Shown: piece by piece, positions 861-60,231 of the stretch
Position numbering within the stretch: the first letter of the stretch is position 1
How the letters are laid out: every line of letters begins with the position of its first letter
Source of the DNA: a virus
DNA: 64,000 nucleotides
Virus record (IMG/VR): IMGVR_UViG_3300020185_000016
Reading direction: 5' to 3' (one strand)
Notes under the pieces: generated by a model
Seen by the model: the letters and a program-made list of their open reading frames with translations, nothing else
Told to the model about the DNA's origin: nothing
Database searches by the model: none
Translations under genes and position numbers: made by a program

Positions 861-1106
861 TTATTTATTAACGTTTTTAGGTGATGTTAAATACAATCCT
901 TCGGTATGATTCATCGAAACAAATAATTCATTAAACATATGCGGAGATATTTGGATTACTTCATGACGATTATAGATTTCATTCCATTGACGGAAAAAAA
1001 CTACATCATCACTAACTATAATTTGAAAATCTTCATATTTTGCATCATTATCAACAATAGTAATAACACTTGCATCAAATTCTTCTTCAATACTAAACAT
1101 CGTCAC
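861..1106 (-). CDS. Hypothetical protein
   Basis: ORF tightly packed in minus-strand run. Confidence 0.6.
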   Translation of the reverse strand: MTMFSIEEEFDASVITIVDNDAKYEDFQIIVSDDVVFFRQWNEIYNRHEVIQISPHMFNELFVSMNHTEGLYLTSPKNVNK

Positions 1107-38216: not shown

Positions 38217-41075
38217 TTATTTTACCTTACTCATTGCAAAATCCATCATTTTCATAAACCTGGTTTCGTCTTTGTTAATTGCGTCAGCAAACTTTTTCTT
38301 GTTTGCATCGTTCAACGAGTCATGCACCTTTACCATTGCAGATGCAGTGAACATATCAACTTTTGTCTTTGAACCAGAAGCAAATTTAACAGCTCCGGCC
38401 GACTTTGTGTTTACGATTTTACGAAGATCATCGATAACGCCTTCTGATACAACTTCTACATAATCTTTATTACTAGGTAATTTGCCTTTATTAAGACCAT
38501 TTTTAGCTTTATGTTTATCAAATGTGGGTTTAATACCACGCTTTTTAGCATTCTTTTCAGCTTTATCGATATCAACCATATGCTTAGCATAACCCTTCTT
38601 AAACATTTTAGGGTCAGATTTTTTATGTTCATCGTCATTTTTTGATTGCTTTTTATTACGCCAATCAATAAATTTTTTGCCGGACATTGCTGCGGCCCGA
38701 TCACTGGAGGTATATTTACCGCCAAATAGACCTTTATTATCTTTGTATTTAGCACTGGTACCAGCAGCCTCTTCTAGCGGATTAGTAAAGCTATCGGCCT
38801 TTAAGCGGCCAATAATACGTCCACCCCCATCTGTAACAATAAAATCGCCGTTATCAGCAATACGAGAAGTTGTTCCGGCTTTTGCTCTTTTACCACCAAG
38901 AGCCTTTGTCATTAGGGCCTTTACTGCTCTTTCTTTTACGCCTTCATCAAGTTCAATTTCTTCATTACGTATATTTTTCTGAAATGCTTTGTATTCTTTG
39001 CGGCGGTCTGCGTCTTTATCTAATAAAGAAAGAATTTTTTCACGTGGCTCTGTGTCTAAGTCATCGACAAACTTCTTCAGTTGTGCTGTTTGACCTTTCT
39101 TCATCATCATAGCAGCTTTTATAAAGTCCATCTTATCAATGCCGCCATGTTTACGGGCATAATCTTCAAGTTCTTTTGCAACACGTGACATTGTAGCTTC
39201 ATCAAGATTCGATTCTCTTATTGAGGCTTTGTACAATTCTAAACCTTTAGAATATGCTGGGTTTTTCATCATTCGCTTTGACTCAGCATCATCTGGATTT
39301 TGATGAGCCATGCGAACTGTTGGTTCGTCTAATTTATTGGCTTTCATATGCTTTTTATATGCATCAAACTTTTTAGAATCTACTGCTGGACCAAATCTGT
39401 TTCTCATCGGCGTGGTTGTTTCATTAACAGATTCAGCAAGCTTCCAACCCTTTGCAAGATATTCTTTTTGTTTAGTCTTATCAATAACAATAGTTTTGCC
39501 GGCTTTATCTACAACCATGACTTCGGTTTTAGGATTTTTTAACTGCCGAGCCTCCTCAACAGATTCGGTAAATTCAACTGGAACAAGGATGGATCCTTTA
39601 GACCCACCATTAACCATCATCATTTCATCACCTTTACGAGCAATTTTAAAATCTTTGTGAATTTTTTTAAAGTTAGCTTTTGAAATATAAACTTTATTAT
39701 TTTTTACTTCATAATCGCGATCCCGTAAAACGGCTTCGTCAAGCGATTCAAATTGCATAGTATGTTGGCCACTGCCACGAACCTTTTCGGCTGCGGCTTT
39801 AGATGAATATGGGGCACCTTGATTAACAAATTTGCCACCAGAAAACTTTTGAACCTGAAACCCGGATTTTGCTTTAGCGCCGGCTCTGTTATCAGGGTGG
39901 GCATTCGACAAATCTATAATACGGATTTGACCGGTTTTAGCTTCAGAAATAGCCTCATCGCCCTTATCGGTTTCGCTGTTTATATTTTGTTTAAATTTAT
40001 TCCAATTATAATCGCGGATAATTTTTAAGATTGCATCTCTATTACTAGAACGCTTGTCAATATATTTACCAACAATGACATCAATAGACATTTTGGCTTC
40101 AAGATCTTTAATAATCTTTTTAGCTGGTAATTTAGCTTCATCTACATATTCAATACCTTCTTTCATATCGATAAGACTTGCACCTAAATCGCCAATAGCA
40201 AAGGTAATTTTACCGTCCTTTTTTCTACGTAAGAAAGATTTAACACCACCAGATTTTGCTTGAAGAGTAATTTTTTCTTGTTCGGAAGGCTTACCTTTTA
40301 AAACGGTTGTTTTTGATAAAACTTTATATTCGACAAAATCTCCACCTTTAGATAACGTTGAATCAAATTTAATTTTTACATTATCATTTTTCTTTAACTT
40401 ATCGAAAATAGCAGAATGTTTGTCGGTCATTTCAGTTAATCCTTTAATTTGTGTAATTTCTGTGGTAGCTTCTGCCATTGCAGGCTTTTCAATCATATAC
40501 ATTTGTACAGATTCCGTTGGAACAATTCCACCACTTTTCCATACTTTTGGGGCAATAAGAACTCGCGGTCCTCTTAATTCTTTTACAATATAATCCATTT
40601 TAGCTTCGGCTGGTCCGTCAGCGTATTTCTTTTTTAAACGAACAGTATCACCTTTTTTAATTTCGGTTTTTGCTTCATAAGCTGGGCCACGCTTTGGTGA
40701 TCCTGGATTTGGCTGTTTTAAATTTTTACGAAGTGCTGCAAGATCATTTTTAAGCTTGCTTATCTTAAAAGATTTCATAACATTTGAATTGCCAGATTTT
40801 GTTATAGCATTTTTTGTTAATTGCATAGACTCTTCGGTATTTTCTTTACGTGACATAGATTTATCCATTTTATCGGCCGCGGAATTGAATAGTTTAGTAT
40901 AAGTTTTTTCATTTTCGGCGGCCGAAGGCATTGCCATCATAACATCATCATTAACAAGATCCCAATTAATTGAACCATCTTTATTATAATTAGCCTTATC
41001 TTTTAAAGACTTTTTTATGTGTTTTTCAATATTAGATTTATTAAGAGAAGCCTCTTGCAAATTACGATTTTCCAT
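38217..41075 (-). CDS. 952-aa Lys-rich modular polyprotein, putative prohead-protease substrate
   Basis: GAGG RBS before MENRNLQE/A; repeated hydrophobic-x-E/(A,G,S,T) linkers. Confidence 0.85.
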   Translation of the reverse strand: MENRNLQEASLNKSNIEKHIKKSLKDKANYNKDGSINWDLVNDDVMMAMPSAAENEKTYTKLFNSAADKMDKSMSRKENTEESMQLTKNAITKSGNSNVMKSFKISKLKNDLAALRKNLKQPNPGSPKRGPAYEAKTEIKKGDTVRLKKKYADGPAEAKMDYIVKELRGPRVLIAPKVWKSGGIVPTESVQMYMIEKPAMAEATTEITQIKGLTEMTDKHSAIFDKLKKNDNVKIKFDSTLSKGGDFVEYKVLSKTTVLKGKPSEQEKITLQAKSGGVKSFLRRKKDGKITFAIGDLGASLIDMKEGIEYVDEAKLPAKKIIKDLEAKMSIDVIVGKYIDKRSSNRDAILKIIRDYNWNKFKQNINSETDKGDEAISEAKTGQIRIIDLSNAHPDNRAGAKAKSGFQVQKFSGGKFVNQGAPYSSKAAAEKVRGSGQHTMQFESLDEAVLRDRDYEVKNNKVYISKANFKKIHKDFKIARKGDEMMMVNGGSKGSILVPVEFTESVEEARQLKNPKTEVMVVDKAGKTIVIDKTKQKEYLAKGWKLAESVNETTTPMRNRFGPAVDSKKFDAYKKHMKANKLDEPTVRMAHQNPDDAESKRMMKNPAYSKGLELYKASIRESNLDEATMSRVAKELEDYARKHGGIDKMDFIKAAMMMKKGQTAQLKKFVDDLDTEPREKILSLLDKDADRRKEYKAFQKNIRNEEIELDEGVKERAVKALMTKALGGKRAKAGTTSRIADNGDFIVTDGGGRIIGRLKADSFTNPLEEAAGTSAKYKDNKGLFGGKYTSSDRAAAMSGKKFIDWRNKKQSKNDDEHKKSDPKMFKKGYAKHMVDIDKAEKNAKKRGIKPTFDKHKAKNGLNKGKLPSNKDYVEVVSEGVIDDLRKIVNTKSAGAVKFASGSKTKVDMFTASAMVKVHDSLNDANKKKFADAINKDETRFMKMMDFAMSKVK

Positions 41076-41553
41076 TGTAACCTCTACCGATTGATTTACG
41101 GAATTGTTTAACACCAACTCTATCAGACATGTCTTGGCCCTTTTCACGCTTACGAATAGTTTCTTTTTCTTTTGAAATTTCAGGATTGCCGCGAAGAAGT
41201 TTAGCTGTTGCAGTATTACGAGCCTTATCACTTTTCATTTTAGCTTTTTTTCTATAGCTATCCAATGCGCCTGGACGATCTAGAACTTCATCAATAGTCT
41301 CTTCATTCTTGCCTCTTACTTTATCCGCTAAATCTTTATCGGCTTTGCCCCATGTGCCCGGAGATTTTGTAGTAAACGAATTAACCCTAGCAAATCCCCA
41401 TTGTTCAGGAGTGGTTCCAGGTCTATGACCGGTTTTCCAAGCCGCTACACCGCGGTTATATACACTACGTAAAACACTTAATGGCATTCCAGATTTTTCC
41501 GCTTTATTTTTAAGTGCTTTAGTATTTTCATTAAATTGTTTAAAAGTTTTCAT
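41062..41553 (-). CDS. Putative internal head protein, two modules
   Basis: MKTFKQFNE/N; internal EETIDE/V. Confidence 0.8.
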   Translation of the reverse strand: MKTFKQFNENTKALKNKAEKSGMPLSVLRSVYNRGVAAWKTGHRPGTTPEQWGFARVNSFTTKSPGTWGKADKDLADKVRGKNEETIDEVLDRPGALDSYRKKAKMKSDKARNTATAKLLRGNPEISKEKETIRKREKGQDMSDRVGVKQFRKSIGRGYNGKS

Positions 41554-42752
41554 GGCTTTGTCGATCTATTTGTTGAACGTGTTTGTAAAGTTCGCGCGCG
41601 ATCTCGCATTGCATCAAATTTGATTTTATCTGCTCTTTTTTCTCTATTAATTCTATCATTTACTTTATCAATATAATCAATTTCTTCGTCGGTATCGCCA
41701 AACATTTGTGCAAATCGTTTAGTGTGCTTACTTGGCTTAGTTTTTGCAGTGGCATCGCCTGGTGCTTTTTTATAAGCATCGGGATTATTATCAGCCTTTT
41801 TAGCATTCTTTTTAAAATGTTGGTCTCTAGCAATTTTTGTAGACTTGTTCTTTATTCCAGCAAAATACTTTTTAGGCTGCGCTCCATCACGGTCCGCAAT
41901 ATCGGGATCTTGGGTAGTAGTTGTTTTTTCTTCAATTTTTTCAATTCTATCAAGCCATTGTCTAGATTTTCCGGATGAAGTTTCAACAATTACATAATTT
42001 GGGCCAAGTGTTGCAATAATACCAACCTCGCTTGTTTCAGTAATAATAATTTCTTCGCCTATAGAATACAAATCACCCTTTACATATTGCTCTCTAATAT
42101 CAGAAATAGATTCTAATTGAATGTGACGTTTAAATTCGGTTTCTTCTTTTAATCCCATGCCTTTACGCACATCATTAAAAAGTTTTTTTGCATCAGAATT
42201 ACTCATTGAAGTAGGAAGACCTTCATAAAATTTTGTGAAATTATTCTCTGCGGCAAATTTACGCTGCTTAGTTCCAGACGCACCGTCTGGCCCATCGCTA
42301 TCAGCATCTCGCATACCGGCCGATATTACCTGAACCCCACCATTAAAATTATAAAATCCGTGAGTAGAATCAACTCCATTATATTTATTTAATCTAATTT
42401 TATATTCATCCACTCTATCACTACCAGCTACCATAATAACTTTACGGAAACCCTGATCATAAAGATAAGCTAATGCAAAAAAAGGATTAATAATTTTTTT
42501 ATTAATTAAAATATTGCGGGCATGTTTTGGAAACATTTTTCGCACATGCTTTACCTTGTCCGCATATTTCAAAGGATTATCTTTTTTATCCTGAGATTGA
42601 GATAAAAAGATTTTATACGGCAAACGGCCAGCGGTTTGCGCTAGTTTATTTAATAATTTACCATGACCAACAGTAGGCGGATTTAATCTACCAAAAGTAA
42701 AATATACTATTTGGTCTTCTTCAATAATATATTGTTTAAAAGAATTAACCAT
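41550..42752 (-). CDS. HIGH-family nucleotidyltransferase with CTS and C-terminal modules
   Basis: MVNSFKQYIIEE; FGRLNPPTVGH, GSDR, SGTK.R. Confidence 0.85.
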   Translation of the reverse strand: MVNSFKQYIIEEDQIVYFTFGRLNPPTVGHGKLLNKLAQTAGRLPYKIFLSQSQDKKDNPLKYADKVKHVRKMFPKHARNILINKKIINPFFALAYLYDQGFRKVIMVAGSDRVDEYKIRLNKYNGVDSTHGFYNFNGGVQVISAGMRDADSDGPDGASGTKQRKFAAENNFTKFYEGLPTSMSNSDAKKLFNDVRKGMGLKEETEFKRHIQLESISDIREQYVKGDLYSIGEEIIITETSEVGIIATLGPNYVIVETSSGKSRQWLDRIEKIEEKTTTTQDPDIADRDGAQPKKYFAGIKNKSTKIARDQHFKKNAKKADNNPDAYKKAPGDATAKTKPSKHTKRFAQMFGDTDEEIDYIDKVNDRINREKRADKIKFDAMRDRARTLQTRSTNRSTKP

Positions 42753-43191
42753 TTTTAGATTGTGCCTTATGCTGTTTTCTATCTTTTTCAGCTTGACGCA
42801 TTTTTGGAAGCAATTTTACAGCAATGCGATCTATTCTTGAGCCCATTTTCTCAAGCCGTTTTTCTAATTCCATTTTACGAGCAACTGACATATCACTTTT
42901 CGGAATATCTTTTGTAAGTTTTTTAAGAATAATATTACGGGCTGCTTTACGTGCACGTTTTTTTAACACATCTTTATTGGCAGTACGACGTGCGGCGCGG
43001 TTGCGCCCCATTTTTAATTTAGCTTTATTACGTTTCATACTACGGCCGCGAGCTAATCGCTGTTGAATATTGAGAGCCTCATCTGGGCCACCACTACCGC
43101 CGGTTCTTTTTGTTCTATGTGCTTGATGTTGAACTTCGTCTGGTTCTCCATCACGCATATCTACAACTCTTAGATCTTTAAATCTAATCAT
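42745..43191 (-). CDS. Arg/Lys-rich late protein
   Basis: MIRFKDL; PDE/ALNIQQRLARGR. Confidence 0.8.
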   Translation of the reverse strand: MIRFKDLRVVDMRDGEPDEVQHQAHRTKRTGGSGGPDEALNIQQRLARGRSMKRNKAKLKMGRNRAARRTANKDVLKKRARKAARNIILKKLTKDIPKSDMSVARKMELEKRLEKMGSRIDRIAVKLLPKMRQAEKDRKQHKAQSKNG

Positions 43192-44420
43192 TAACTTCTC
43201 CCTGGCTTATCCCATCCTTTAATAATATCTGGCGAAAAGTTGTTGTATGAAAATTCTAATCTATCAACAATCTTTACAGCGTCACTACCCAGTCTATCAA
43301 TTGCTACATAACCTTCTTGACCCGTTGTTTTAAAACCATTTTTAGTTTTTACAAAAGTCTTTACTTTATTTATCCTATCAAGTATATTTATAAGTTTTAA
43401 TTTCGCTAAGACAATAACTTTCTGCAATTCGAACATAGTTATCAAATTATTTTTATTATTAGCCGAAAAAAATGATAAAATATCATTCAGTTTATCTTGT
43501 TTGCGCCCCTTACCTTTTTCAGTTTTAAGCTTATCCATTTCTTTTTGGAATTTTGCTTCAATAAATTTAATAAGTGCCGTTACTCTTTTGGCTGGATCCG
43601 GGGGCATTTGGCCTGCCCGTACATAAGAATTTGAATGTTGCTCTATTAATTGTGTTAAATCAGTATTAGCTTCTAAGGTGCGTAAAACGCCCCCCGAAAT
43701 TTTATTAAATAATTTTCCAGCTTGAGTTAAATAGTCATTTACTATATCGGAATCAGACTTATTCATAGTAAGATTTGTCATATCACGAAGCATAGCATCT
43801 TGCGACCAAACATTTTTTGATTTTTTAAGACGAGAAACATTAACACCATATGAAGCTTTCATAGTTTCAAATGTATTACCTTTATATGTAGTATGCCAAA
43901 CAATACCAATTTTAGATGCTAAAATTTCTTTTGATGATACTGTATTAGCTGGTACAGCATAAACAATAGTATTTGGATGGAAGGTGATATATTTTTCACC
44001 AGCAATAGTTTCATTACTAAGATCGCCTGGGCCGTATAAAAAATCGCCCTGAATAACTTCAGTAATTCCCAATTCGGGTAAATATTGTAAGGCTTGCTTA
44101 AGCTTTATAGCTAAATCGCCTGAAGTATCTGCATCTACCTCACCTGGAGTTTTATATACTTTTGGATTTTTATTAAAAATACCCTTTTTAGCAACAAAAA
44201 ATTTGCCATCAGCTGGATCAATGCCAGCAAATACTGCTGGTGCTCCATCCCATTTAACAGATATTTTCCCGTCATGTTCGCCCTTTAACATATTACGCAA
44301 TTCGCGCAAAGCCATAATAGCTTGACGAGTACCATTAACACCACCATAAATCACCTTATCTTCAAGGTGTGTCATGTGAGTATTTTTGTTTTCAGCAATG
44401 AAAGATTTAAAGTTTTCCAT
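43191..44420 (-). CDS. CTS-bearing protein with ligase-like nucleotidyltransferase motifs
   Basis: MENFKSFIAE/N; VKWDG, IQGDF, QEGYV, VKIV. Confidence 0.7.
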   Translation of the reverse strand: MENFKSFIAENKNTHMTHLEDKVIYGGVNGTRQAIMALRELRNMLKGEHDGKISVKWDGAPAVFAGIDPADGKFFVAKKGIFNKNPKVYKTPGEVDADTSGDLAIKLKQALQYLPELGITEVIQGDFLYGPGDLSNETIAGEKYITFHPNTIVYAVPANTVSSKEILASKIGIVWHTTYKGNTFETMKASYGVNVSRLKKSKNVWSQDAMLRDMTNLTMNKSDSDIVNDYLTQAGKLFNKISGGVLRTLEANTDLTQLIEQHSNSYVRAGQMPPDPAKRVTALIKFIEAKFQKEMDKLKTEKGKGRKQDKLNDILSFFSANNKNNLITMFELQKVIVLAKLKLINILDRINKVKTFVKTKNGFKTTGQEGYVAIDRLGSDAVKIVDRLEFSYNNFSPDIIKGWDKPGRS

Positions 44421-45255: not shown

Positions 45256-46008
45256 TTACATTTTTACCCTAGGTTTAATTGTGCCAGAAGTTATTCTTTC
45301 TAAGATAATATCTTTCTTTTGAACCAGTTTAATTTCAATAAGGTCCCCAAGAGAAAATCCGGCGCCAGTTTTATTAGCTAAAAAAATAATTTTATGATTT
45401 TTAAAATAATTTTTATAACTTAGATCTACAAATTCATCTTCAAGGTCTTTAAGCTGCGCCGGAAATTGTTTTCTTATTATATCAAGTTGTCCGCTATTAA
45501 CTTCGGATCCACTTCCTAATCCAGCATCTTTTTTTAAATCTTGAATCCCGCGAATAATTTCAGCAATAGAAAATGTTCCCCCAATTTTAAAATTATTAAC
45601 ATATTTACCATTAGCCGAATAATCAACAGCTTTAACTTCAAAGCTTCCTGCTGCATCCACAATATCAACTCCGGCCGAAGAGCCTCCACCCAAATGTCCA
45701 TTATTCAAAATAAAATATAGCATAACTTCACCGGGTCCTACCCCTTTAATATTATACTTATATAATGCTTCGAAGTTACGGATATCTATATTCCGTGCAG
45801 TTTTAATTGCTTTTTTAAGAGCTGACGCAGTAATTCGATCTATATGAACATCATTGCTATTATTAAATTTTGGAAAAAAATGTAAATGAAAAAGATGTTG
45901 AATTTCTTTTTTATAAGTCAAAGATTCAAAATCTTTTGCAATTAAATTAAATGAGGTCCGTACCATAGCTCTATTAAGAAACTCGGAATTTAATTGACTA
46001 GTATCCAT
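45256..46008 (-). CDS. Putative PD-(D/E)xK nuclease-like protein
   Basis: GPGE..; GVDIV....FEVKA; TATAAATA at 46040..46047. Confidence 0.55.
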   Translation of the reverse strand: MDTSQLNSEFLNRAMVRTSFNLIAKDFESLTYKKEIQHLFHLHFFPKFNNSNDVHIDRITASALKKAIKTARNIDIRNFEALYKYNIKGVGPGEVMLYFILNNGHLGGGSSAGVDIVDAAGSFEVKAVDYSANGKYVNNFKIGGTFSIAEIIRGIQDLKKDAGLGSGSEVNSGQLDIIRKQFPAQLKDLEDEFVDLSYKNYFKNHKIIFLANKTGAGFSLGDLIEIKLVQKKDIILERITSGTIKPRVKM

Positions 46009-46061
46009 TATTTTTTTCCACTAATAAACTTATTAGTATTATTTATATAAAAAAATATTAT

Positions 46062-46094
46062 AAAGCCCCCAATACTTAATGTGTTGGGGGCTTT
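46062..46094. terminator. Terminator separating early and late blocks
   Basis: AAAGCCCCCAATAC-TTAAT-GTGTTGGGGGCTTT. Confidence 0.85.
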
Positions 46095-47461: not shown

Positions 47462-47668
47462 TTATGCGAAGTGGTTATCAACAAGCACACTAATGCAATC
47501 ATTCAGATACTCAGTATCATAGAAGACTCCAAGTGGAATAAAGATATCAGACTCAACAAAGTTCCAATTGATACCGCCACCTTCGTGGATATTTTCTGGA
47601 TTAACCACCGCAGCATTGAAAGCTTCGATAATGTCATTCTTAATCATTGCGCCATAAGTAGTAAGCAT
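47462..47668 (-). CDS. Early protein of the INW family (paralog of 59885..60175)
   Basis: IKND..EAFN.A....EN......INW.FVE.D shared. Confidence 0.75.
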   Translation of the reverse strand: MLTTYGAMIKNDIIEAFNAAVVNPENIHEGGGINWNFVESDIFIPLGVFYDTEYLNDCISVLVDNHFA

Positions 47669-47692: not shown

Positions 47693-47721
47693 GTTATATC
47701 ATATTAAGATCTGATTGTAAA
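47693..47721 (-). promoter_or_regulatory. Early promoter (duplicated unit)
   Basis: TTTACA-N17-TATAAC; about 65 bp nearly identical to 48107..48175. Confidence 0.85.
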
Positions 47722-48189: not shown

Positions 48190-48447
48190 TTATGCCACCT
48201 CATAGCCTATTACAGTTTCTACATATCCATTACCATACTCTTCAGCAATCGCCAATAGGATCTGCTCACGTGGTTCTGTATCCATATTACCGATTTTTGC
48301 TAAAGCGCCGTCAATGTCATTCGAATTCATCAGCCACTGCACCTGCTTAAAATCAGCCGTATCGGCCAGATATAGATCAGCAAGGCCTGCATCTTGTGCT
48401 TCTAAGCTATAGCTGAATGTTTGATCGATAAGTTTTTGAATAGTCAT
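48190..48447 (-). CDS. Early protein with DTEPRE motif
   Basis: GGAG RBS; matches a polyprotein module. Confidence 0.75.
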   Translation of the reverse strand: MTIQKLIDQTFSYSLEAQDAGLADLYLADTADFKQVQWLMNSNDIDGALAKIGNMDTEPREQILLAIAEEYGNGYVETVIGYEVA

Positions 48448-59884: not shown

Positions 59885-60175
59885 TTATACTCCCAAATAA
59901 TCGGTTTTTAGAATTTCGAGTTGCCCAATAGCGTTTGGATAACGAGTGAGTAAATTTTCAGTATTGTCTAGCAAGTCGTCACGTAAAACATCTAAGCAGT
60001 CTATGATATATGATCGGGTATATACAAAACATTCATTGTACATATCAGCTTCAACAAAAGCCCAATTGATTTTGTTATTATAATCAAAATTCTCGCGAAG
60101 AAAAATCGCGGTATTAAAAGCTTCGACTACATCATTTTTGATGGCCGAACCATTTGCTAGATGATAGATTGTCAT
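59885..60175 (-). CDS. Early protein of the INW family
   Basis: Paralog of 47462..47668. Confidence 0.75.
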   Translation of the reverse strand: MTIYHLANGSAIKNDVVEAFNTAIFLRENFDYNNKINWAFVEADMYNECFVYTRSYIIDCLDVLRDDLLDNTENLLTRYPNAIGQLEILKTDYLGV

Positions 60176-60202: not shown

Positions 60203-60231
60203 AATATAACATATATACAAATAAATGTAAA
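60203..60231 (-). promoter_or_regulatory. Early promoter
   Basis: TTTACA-N17-TATATT. Confidence 0.8.

What the first reader, a model, noticed from the sequence alone, without database searches (positions are those of the whole stretch)
40830..41051. First polyprotein module matches the two-member INW early-gene family (47462..47668 and 59885..60175)
Ungapped alignment from the conserved Lys: KSNIEKHIKKSLKDKANYNKDGSINWDLVNDD, KNDIIEAFNAAVVNPENIHEGGGINWNFVESD and KNDVVEAFNTAIFLRENFDYNNKINWAFVEAD. N17, INW24-26, V and D are conserved. This is a second independent case of an early domain recurring in the putative capsid cargo, and the family has three copies in 64 kb.
Basis: partly seen in the sequence, partly recalled or inferred. 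Interest (0 to 1): 0.75.

Follow-up and report, generated by a model that had tools for sequence, protein, structure and literature searches.

The report
Early-gene domain fused into late protein
The first 80 or so residues of a huge lysine-rich late protein of this marine T4-like phage are a true, diverged copy of a small three-helix domain that otherwise occurs as free-standing acidic early proteins. Two such proteins lie in the same window and about 200 sequence clusters occur in metagenomes; the function is unknown.

Summary
A 10-member subfamily HMM ranks the module first of all window proteins at 15.4 bits, a score reached by 2 of 2000 shuffled proteomes. An exhaustive search showed the "two-member" family is large: 196 clusters at 50% identity, nearly all unnamed metagenomic proteins of 50-110 aa, with no Pfam, PHROG or PDB relative. 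A profile of 148 of them hits the module at 42 bits (E 4.6e-12), and hhalign gives 96.3% probability (E 1.6e-9) over 65 columns. N, DG, INW, V and D of the core are kept; F, A and E are replaced. The window holds exactly three copies. The module is closer to the general family type than to its two in-genome paralogs, so it is a captured cassette and not a recent local duplicate. It is near-neutral (pI 6.9), whereas the family is acidic (median pI 4.1). The host protein is a cassette mosaic: strain variants gain and lose whole modules at Glu-ending linkers. That it is capsid cargo cut by the prohead protease remains an inference. An earlier scan report found a parallel case in the same protein.

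The parts
40830..41051 (-). INW-type three-helix module: residues 9-82 of the 952-aa late protein, near-neutral (pI 6.85)
   Evidence: Family HMM 42 bits, E 4.6e-12, aligned residues 7-89. hhalign 96.3%, family columns 11-75 = residues 13-77. The AF2 model with the family MSA has pLDDT 86-97 for residues 11-70 and helices 13-23, 38-48 and 50 onward. pI.
41052..41075 (-). N-terminal octapeptide MENRNLQE. It ends in L-x-E and precedes the module; it may be a short leader removed by a T4-type prohead protease (inferred).
   Evidence: Sequence. Disordered in the model (pLDDT 50). The ATG at 41075 lies behind AGAGG and overlaps the stop of the upstream gene.
38217..41075 (-). 952-aa lysine-rich (pI 9.68) mosaic late protein made of cassettes joined by Glu-ending linkers
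   Evidence: Modules recur in other orders in IMG/VR relatives. There are sharp nucleotide-identity breakpoints at residues 506 and 712. Strain variant P0007 has one 76-aa cassette inserted and residues 624-708 deleted. No Pfam or PHROG hit.
47462..47668 (-). Free-standing INW-family gene 1 (68 aa, pI 4.05)
   Evidence: AF2 model pLDDT 85.8 with three helices. Relatives L003-L011.
47693..47721 (-). Possible sigma-70-type promoter TTTACA-17-TATAAC in front of gene 1, read by eye. The last base of the -10 hexamer is C, so the scan tool does not list it.
   Evidence: Sequence; absent from the list.
59885..60175 (-). Free-standing INW-family gene 2 (96 aa, pI 4.29)
   Evidence: Relatives P0004, P0005 and L002.
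60203..60231 (-). Sigma-70-type promoter TTTACA-17-TATATT with an upstream TG, in front of gene 2
   Evidence: Scan result, 10 of 12 matches; sequence.
46040..46094 (-). Hairpin (46062-46094), T-run, then TATAAATA (46040-46047) 32 nt before the ATG at 46008. This is the probable boundary between the early region and the late cluster that contains the 952-aa gene.

Best explanation
Shown: residues about 9-82 of the 952-aa late protein are a diverged member of an undescribed family of compact three-helix domains. The family signature is roughly F..A(V/I)...EN...(D/N)G.(I/V)NW(N/D)(F/Y)V(D/E)(A/S)D. Elsewhere the domain exists almost only as free-standing, strongly acidic proteins of 60-100 aa in uncultured T4-like aquatic phages, and two of them lie in this window's small-gene regions. 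Shown: the host protein is a cassette mosaic whose modules are swapped, inserted and deleted between near-identical strains at Glu-ending linkers. Inferred: the INW cassette entered by such a fusion from a lineage other than the two resident paralogs, and then drifted towards the lysine-rich composition of its host protein. Inferred, about 45% likely: the late protein is packed into the prohead and cut by the T4-type prohead protease after LQE(8) and NTEE(82). The domain would then travel with the DNA and act on its target, probably a protein, at the moment of injection. The free-standing early genes would supply related activities once transcription starts. The biochemical activity of the domain is unknown.
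For: Homology: subfamily HMM, empirical p about 0.001; family HMM, 42 bits, E 4.6e-12; hhalign 96.3%; reverse searches; N, D, G, I, N, W, V, D and the third-helix F..AD are kept. Same predicted fold. Family size and form: 196 clusters, nearly all 50-110 aa, domain at the N-terminus; 145 of 148 acidic, median pI 4.14. Real fusion and not an assembly artefact: the same N-terminus on long proteins from independent assemblies (P0006, 36 member sequences on 4 contigs; P0007). Cassette nature. Module not derived from the resident paralogs: (12-16% identity to them against 25-29% to general-type members). Early or late setting: sigma-70-type promoter before gene 2; TATAAATA after a hairpin at the head of the late cluster. 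Cargo inference: basic pI 9.68; L/V-x-E linkers at the cassette borders; T4-CTS-like N-termini in neighbouring genes and in the L012 version of the protein, compared with the T4 CTS MKTYQEFIAE as given in PMC8442874.
Against: The HMM from the two resident genes alone is not significant (E 0.082). Three well-conserved family positions are replaced in the module (F to I, A to S, E to A), and the charge is very different, so the activity may have changed or been lost. The structure model of the module was driven by the family alignment and is not independent evidence. The protein's own N-terminus (MENRNLQE) is not a convincing T4 CTS. The late promoter is only a pattern match about 5 kb upstream, and TATAAATA is not over-represented in the window. 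There are no proteomic or expression data. No other long protein among 5.8 billion sequences carries this N-terminal module, and none of the related mosaic proteins fetched does, so the fusion is a single lineage event.
Confidence: 0.85

Rival explanations
1. The homology is real, but the domain acts inside the producing cell or the prohead rather than as an injected effector. Sitting where T4 internal proteins carry their capsid-targeting sequence, the N-terminal INW domain could be a docking or assembly handle, or the protein could be an uncut DNA-binding internal or scaffold-like protein.
For: The protein lacks a canonical CTS, while its neighbours and the L012 version have one. The module sits at the extreme N-terminus. 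The module lost the family's acidic character.
Against: The free-standing family members are small early-type proteins with no link to head genes. The related mosaic proteins do without this module. The Glu-ending linkers flank it like every other cassette.
Confidence: 0.2
2. The homology is real, but the module is a decaying passenger: a relic of an illegitimate fusion that no longer has the family's function.
For: The F, A and E positions, conserved in 79-97% of members, are replaced. The fusion is unique to one lineage. Cassettes come and go between strains.
Against: The most conserved core (N, DG, INW, V, D) and the third-helix F..AD are intact. The sequence threads on the fold with pLDDT above 86. 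There is no change in residues 1-83 between the window and P0007, though only about 1.3 changes were expected, so this is weak.
Confidence: 0.12
3. The similarity is a chance match of a short motif in an AT-rich, Asn/Lys/Asp-rich proteome.
For: Pairwise BLASTP of gene 1 against the protein finds nothing there. The two-gene HMM gives E 0.082, and an antisense non-coding ORF scored 11-12 bits with the small HMMs.
Against: 42 bits and E 4.6e-12 with the family profile, against 4.9 bits for the next ORF. hhalign E 1.6e-9 over 65 columns, including the third helix. Shuffle controls reach the score in 2 of 2000 trials. The domain starts within about 3 residues of the protein start in both forms.
Confidence: 0.02

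Closest known systems
T4 Alt (packaged and injected) versus ModA/ModB (early-expressed paralogs)
   Same: One domain family is present in a phage both as a late-made form thought to travel in the head and as early-transcribed free-standing genes. The comparison rests on established T4 knowledge; the earlier report e1-5324217 named the same analogy for another module.
   Different: There is no sequence or fold relation to ADP-ribosyltransferases. Here the domain is about 65 aa with unknown activity, and the late copy is one cassette of a 952-aa mosaic, not a protein of its own. Packaging is not shown.
T4 internal proteins IPI-III with the capsid targeting sequence MKTYQEFIAE
   Same: Basic, late, dispensable-looking proteins. 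In T4 they are cleaved once after the CTS by the prohead protease and ejected with the DNA (PMC8442874, PMC3012670). Neighbouring genes and a relative's version of the mosaic protein start with very similar decapeptides.
   Different: This protein's own start (MENRNLQE) shares only the L-x-E end. T4 IPs are single small proteins, not multi-cassette chains. No virion data exist here.
Ejection or inner-body proteins of giant phages (SPN3US, phiKZ-like) processed by the prohead protease
   Same: Large sets of head-internal proteins cut by a T4 gp21-type protease and delivered to the cell (abstracts of PMC5694885 and PMC7411985).
   Different: No homology was found. Those proteins are not described as strings of exchangeable cassettes that match early genes.
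Tri-helical Myb/SANT-, TEA- and HTH-like domains
   Same: Three short helices with a conserved Trp at the start of helix 2. Several weak structural hits exist (TEAD4, Myb/SANT-like, sigma region 4, HTH_40 and HTH_11).
   Different: All hits are below significance (Foldseek E above 0.6, TM 0.4-0.55, VIA Z at most 5.6, below helical noise). The family is strongly acidic, which argues against DNA binding.

Membership tests
INW small-protein family (undescribed; defined here by alignments A1 and A3 and the 148-member profile) | Significant match to a family profile built without the module | tested here: met
   hmmsearch 42.0 bits, E 4.6e-12; hhalign probability 96.3%, E 1.6e-9; subfamily HMM 15.4 bits with empirical p about 0.001.
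INW small-protein family | Core residues conserved in at least 90% of members: A20, N26, G31, W35, N/D36, F/Y37, V38, A/S40, D41 (numbering of the 68-aa gene), plus F17 (88%) and E25 (79%) | tested here: inconclusive
   Kept: N, G, W, D (for N/D36), V, D41, and also D30, S32, I33, N34. Replaced: F17 to I, A20 to S, E25 to A, F37 to L, A40 to D. The core is recognisable but clearly diverged.
INW small-protein family | Three-helix fold with a short bridge between helices 1 and 2 | tested here: met
   The 68-aa gene has helices 11-21, 35-46 and 52-67, pLDDT 85.8. The module has helices 13-23, 38-48 and 50 onward, pLDDT 86-97 over residues 11-70. The second model used the family alignment, so it shows compatibility and is not independent proof.
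INW small-protein family | Free-standing, small (50-110 aa), strongly acidic protein | tested here: not met
   The module is the N-terminal cassette of a 952-aa protein and has pI 6.85, against a family median of 4.14 with 145 of 148 members acidic. This concerns form, not descent.
T4-type CTS-targeted capsid internal proteins | N-terminal targeting peptide resembling MKTYQEFIAE and ending in (L/I)-x-E | tested here: inconclusive
   The protein's own N-terminus, MENRNLQE, has only the L-x-E end. Neighbours MENFKSFIAE, MVNSFKQYIIE and MYTFKSFISE, and the L012 version MKTFKNLIAE, fit well (CTS from PMC8442874).
T4-type CTS-targeted capsid internal proteins | Late transcription | tested here: inconclusive
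   TATAAATA lies 32 nt before the first gene of the cluster and directly after a hairpin. This is a pattern match only, about 5 kb upstream, and the motif count in the window is not above chance.
T4-type CTS-targeted capsid internal proteins | Presence in virions and cleavage by the prohead protease | not testable with these tools
   There is no proteomic data and no isolate. Candidate L/V-x-E sites were only listed from the sequence.
EF-hand / DxDxDG calcium-binding loop | 12-residue loop with ligands at positions 1, 3, 5, Gly at 6, a hydrophobic residue at 8, and an acidic bidentate ligand at 12 | tested here: not met
   The family loop N-x-(N/D)-x-(D/N)-G-x-(I/V)-(N/D)-W fits positions 1, 3, 5, 6, 8 and 9, but position 12 is F/Y in 93% of members (L in the module) and position 1 is Asn in 98%. 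No Pfam EF-hand hit. This is a resemblance only.
Myb/SANT or other tri-helical HTH folds | Significant structural match to a solved or modelled member | tested here: inconclusive
   Only weak rows: Foldseek PDB best E 1.7, VIA best Z 5.6, AFDB Myb/SANT-like E 0.9-3, Atlas TM 0.50-0.55 to HTH families.

The most novel reading that the evidence does not exclude
The 952-aa protein is a capsid-packed string of exchangeable cassettes that the prohead protease dices into small proteins. At least two of the cassettes (this INW module and residues 624-708) are copies of early host-takeover domains. The phage would thus inject a ready-made sample of its early proteome ahead of transcription. Strains would reshuffle that sample by recombination at the conserved Glu-ending linkers, as an arms-race device.
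Probability: 0.3. Interest if true: 0.8.

Novelty: new variant of a known kind. Interest (0 to 1): 0.55.

Why it matters
This work defines a previously unnamed family of small phage proteins that is widespread in aquatic metagenomes. The family has about 200 clusters and no Pfam, PHROG or PDB relative. The same domain exists in two forms in one phage: free-standing acidic early genes, and a near-neutral cassette in a large basic late protein. Together with the earlier, parallel case in the same protein, this makes the idea of pre-packaged early functions concrete and testable in abundant marine T4-like phages. The cassette gain and loss seen between near-identical strains points to fast evolution of whatever these modules target. 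If the cargo reading fails, what remains is a well-supported but ordinary domain fusion.

Tried and rejected
1. HMM of the two resident genes only: E 0.082 for the module, with an antisense ORF scoring higher. It was too weak to decide and was replaced by enriched profiles.
2. Pairwise BLASTP. Gene 1 against the late protein finds nothing at the module. Gene 2 gives E 5e-4, but that alignment runs partly through untranslated upstream sequence.
3. Word-indexed protein search with gene 2 found only two near-identical proteins. The same search with the late protein's first 120 residues found only the protein itself and a 99% variant, so no independent profile of the module could be built.
4. Pfam and PHROGs on the three proteins and on 33 aligned members: nothing, apart from a weak phrog_9843 hit for the module (E 0.006).
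5. PDB by sequence profile: nothing.
6. Fold searches in PDB (Foldseek), PDB (VIA wide), BFVD, AFDB clusters and the ESM Atlas returned only unnamed family members and sub-threshold tri-helical/HTH-like rows. No function can be taken from them.
7. tblastn of three family members against 50,697 cultured-phage records: no credible hit. The Melnitz genome has no copy.
8. Search for the domain in other mosaic proteins of 54 fetched loci: none.
9. Megablast of the 10-kb neighbourhood against cultured phages: no match.
10. The whole genome of the window is not held, and the nearest record (G001, 23 kb) has no copy.
11. Context of three distant members on long contigs: T4-like phage neighbourhoods with no informative neighbours.
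12. Not run: complex prediction, because no partner can be named, and read mapping, because an uncultured phage gives no infection time course.
Full report
Setting. The window is AT-rich (about 34% GC) and almost all of its genes lie on the minus strand. The only cultured relatives found are the Methylophilales myophages of the Melnitz group (Kyanoviridae, T4-like), and they match only part of the large protein. Nothing matches at the nucleotide level. The window is therefore a stretch of an uncultured marine T4-like phage.

The observation. The ORF 38217-41231 (minus strand) most plausibly starts at the ATG at 41075. That ATG sits behind AGAGG and overlaps the stop of the upstream gene. This start gives a 952-aa protein, and the coordinates 40830-41051 are its residues 9-82. 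The two small genes are 47462-47668 (68 aa) and 59885-60175 (96 aa from the ATG). The quoted peptides are correct. The tripeptide INW occurs four times in all six-frame ORFs of 30 aa or more, and three of those are these sites in the same register. The two small genes are unambiguous paralogs (E 1e-12).

Is the third match more than chance? I then collected relatives of the small genes from IMG/VR and the protein collection.
- A 10-member HMM ranks the large protein first among all non-self ORFs at 15.4 bits (E 5.9e-4). The next real protein scores 6.1 bits.
- Shuffled window proteomes reach 15.4 bits in 1 of 300 trials with a global shuffle and in 2 of 2000 with a 30-residue local shuffle. 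Reversed sequences peak at 9.9 bits.
- The reverse search agrees. phmmer with the first 150 residues of the large protein against 4399 six-frame ORFs of the fetched loci returns the INW genes as its eight best hits (best E 0.0011).

The family is large. An exhaustive HMMER search of 1.84 billion representatives with alignment A1 found 196 clusters at E 0.001 or better. Nearly all are proteins of 50-110 aa with the match at their N-terminus, and many match only profile positions of about 9-47. None of the ten looked up carries a name. The core reads roughly (A/S)FN.AV.NPENI..DGSINWNFVDADVYMD. The module's DGSINWDLVNDDVMM fits this general type much better than it fits the two resident genes.
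- A profile of 148 members, built without the module, hits the large protein at 42.0 bits, E 4.6e-12, aligned over residues 7-89. The next non-family ORF in the window scores 4.9 bits, so there are exactly three copies.
- hhalign of a 42-member alignment against the whole 952-aa protein gives probability 96.3% and E 1.6e-9. Family columns 11-75 align to residues 13-77, so the third helix is included.
- 100 of 152 family members match the module at E<1e-3 in a family-sized search. The best single-sequence scores are about 30 bits, while the resident paralogs are not among the 77 members that search reported.
- Conserved N, D, G, I, N, W, V, D and the third-helix F..AD are kept. F17, A20, E25, F37 and A40 (numbering of the 68-aa gene) are replaced by I, S, A, L and D.

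Fold. AlphaFold2 on the subfamily alignment gives a confident three-helix model for the 68-aa protein: pLDDT 85.8, helices 11-21, 35-46 and 52-67, with a small bridge between helices 1 and 2. The module, modelled with the family alignment, gives the same pattern shifted by three residues, with pLDDT 86-97 over residues 11-70. The first 12 residues are disordered. This second model is alignment-driven, so it shows compatibility only.

Fold and family searches gave no function. The only convincing structural matches are unnamed viral or metagenomic proteins of the same size. Below threshold there is a scatter of tri-helical DNA- or protein-binding folds (TEA, Myb/SANT-like, sigma region 4, HTH). 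The family is strongly acidic (median pI 4.14; 145 of 148 members below 7), while the module is near-neutral (pI 6.85) inside a protein of pI 9.68. The loop between helices 1 and 2 resembles positions 1, 3, 5, 6, 8 and 9 of an EF-hand loop but lacks the acidic position 12. I record this only as a lead.

The host protein. BLASTP against relatives shows that segments 147-306, 293-360, 421-505, 506-732 and 870-952 recur in other orders and in proteins of many sizes.
- One IMG/VR contig (L012) is 97.6% identical in nucleotides to the window from 39559 to 38194 and unrelated upstream.
- Two others (L013, L014) are 91% identical only over 39559-38942.
- These breakpoints fall at residues 506 and 712, which are the linkers SVEE/A and ELDE/G.
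- A strain variant (P0007) has only 14 point changes, none in residues 1-83. It also has a 76-aa cassette inserted after residue 377 and lacks exactly residues 624-708.

The protein is therefore a string of exchangeable cassettes joined by Glu-ending linkers. The INW module is bounded by LQE/A (residue 8) and NTEE/S (residue 82). No other long protein in the 5.8-billion collection shares this N-terminal module, and none of the related mosaic proteins fetched has it. One other fusion was seen: a 173-aa protein with the domain at its C-terminal end, on a 226-kb T4-like contig. A related 63-kb contig carries two free-standing copies, a 183-kb genome carries one, and Melnitz carries none.

Timing and cargo.
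- Gene 2 has a good sigma-70-type promoter (TTTACA-17-TATATT with TG).
- Gene 1 has TTTACA-17-TATAAC by eye, which the scan does not accept.
- The cluster containing the large gene begins with TATAAATA 32 nt before the ATG at 46008, directly after a strong hairpin and T-run. Several other TATAAATA copies also sit about 30 nt before start codons, although the motif is not over-represented overall.
- Neighbouring proteins start with MENFKSFIAE, MVNSFKQYIIE and MKTFKQFNEN, and the L012 version of the mosaic protein starts with MKTFKNLIAE. These are close to the T4 capsid targeting sequence MKTYQEFIAE (PMC8442874; role of the CTS in PMC3012670).
- The 952-aa protein itself starts with MENRNLQE, which shares only the L-x-E ending.

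Packaging and cleavage are thus plausible, and I put them at about 45%, but they are not shown.

Relation to earlier notes. The scan's earlier notes on this window proposed the polyprotein reading (e1-5324216) and the CTS-like N-termini (e1-5324219). A follow-up confirmed a parallel case for residues 624-708 against the gene 48190-48447 (e1-5324217). I partly re-tested these. The CTS-like N-termini are there. The linkers coincide with recombination breakpoints. In a single-sequence phmmer run, the gene at 48190-48447 is the second-best window hit of the large protein after the INW gene, but at a non-significant E of 0.36.

Verdict. First, the family is large. Second, the module is a captured cassette of the general family type and not a recent copy of the two resident genes. 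The functional reading, an early domain delivered as capsid cargo, remains an attractive inference and needs virion proteomics.

Noticed in passing
window 38952-39206 and 39945 (residues 624-708 and 377 of the 952-aa protein): Strain variant P0007 lacks exactly residues 624-708 (the module of finding e1-5324217) and has a 76-aa cassette inserted after residue 377. Elsewhere it has only 14 point changes. Whole cassettes are gained and lost at LDE/ISE-type linkers.
   Followed up: partly
window 39559 and 38942; loci L012, L013, L014: Sharp nucleotide-identity breakpoints (97.6% or 91% identity, then nothing) fall at residues 506 and 712, both at Glu-ending linkers. This suggests the linkers are recombination junctions.
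   Followed up: partly
window 46040-46094 (minus strand): A strong 14-bp hairpin with a T-run is followed immediately by TATAAATA, 32 nt before the ATG at 46008. This looks like a terminator and late-promoter boundary between the small-gene region and the late cluster.
   Followed up: partly
window 44420, 42752, 41553, 51869 (+); L012 around 3260: The N-termini MENFKSFIAE, MVNSFKQYIIE, MKTFKQFNEN, MYTFKSFISE and MKTFKNLIAE resemble the T4 capsid targeting sequence MKTYQEFIAE.
   Followed up: partly
loci L012, L016, L030 (mosaic-protein relatives): These relatives carry a canonical EF-hand/DxDxDG-type loop (DIDNDGDVDSSD) as one of their cassettes. The INW family loop is a weaker look-alike that lacks the position-12 acid.
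   Followed up: no
L046/L047 6001-6522 (protein P0108): A 173-aa protein carries the INW domain at its C-terminal end, on a 226-kb T4-like metagenomic contig next to CsgG/CsgF/curlin-like and CHASE2-guanylate cyclase genes.
   Followed up: no
window 870-952 of the protein (38217-38465): The C-terminal 80 residues of the mosaic protein recur at the C-terminus of many small proteins (160-250 aa) in related phages, including Melnitz gene 30. This may be a shared anchoring or assembly module.
   Followed up: no
window 41062-44420: The genes just upstream match DUF6267 (E 3e-100), a cytidylyltransferase-like PHROG and DUF5824. The same neighbourhood precedes the mosaic-protein homolog in Melnitz.
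   Followed up: no
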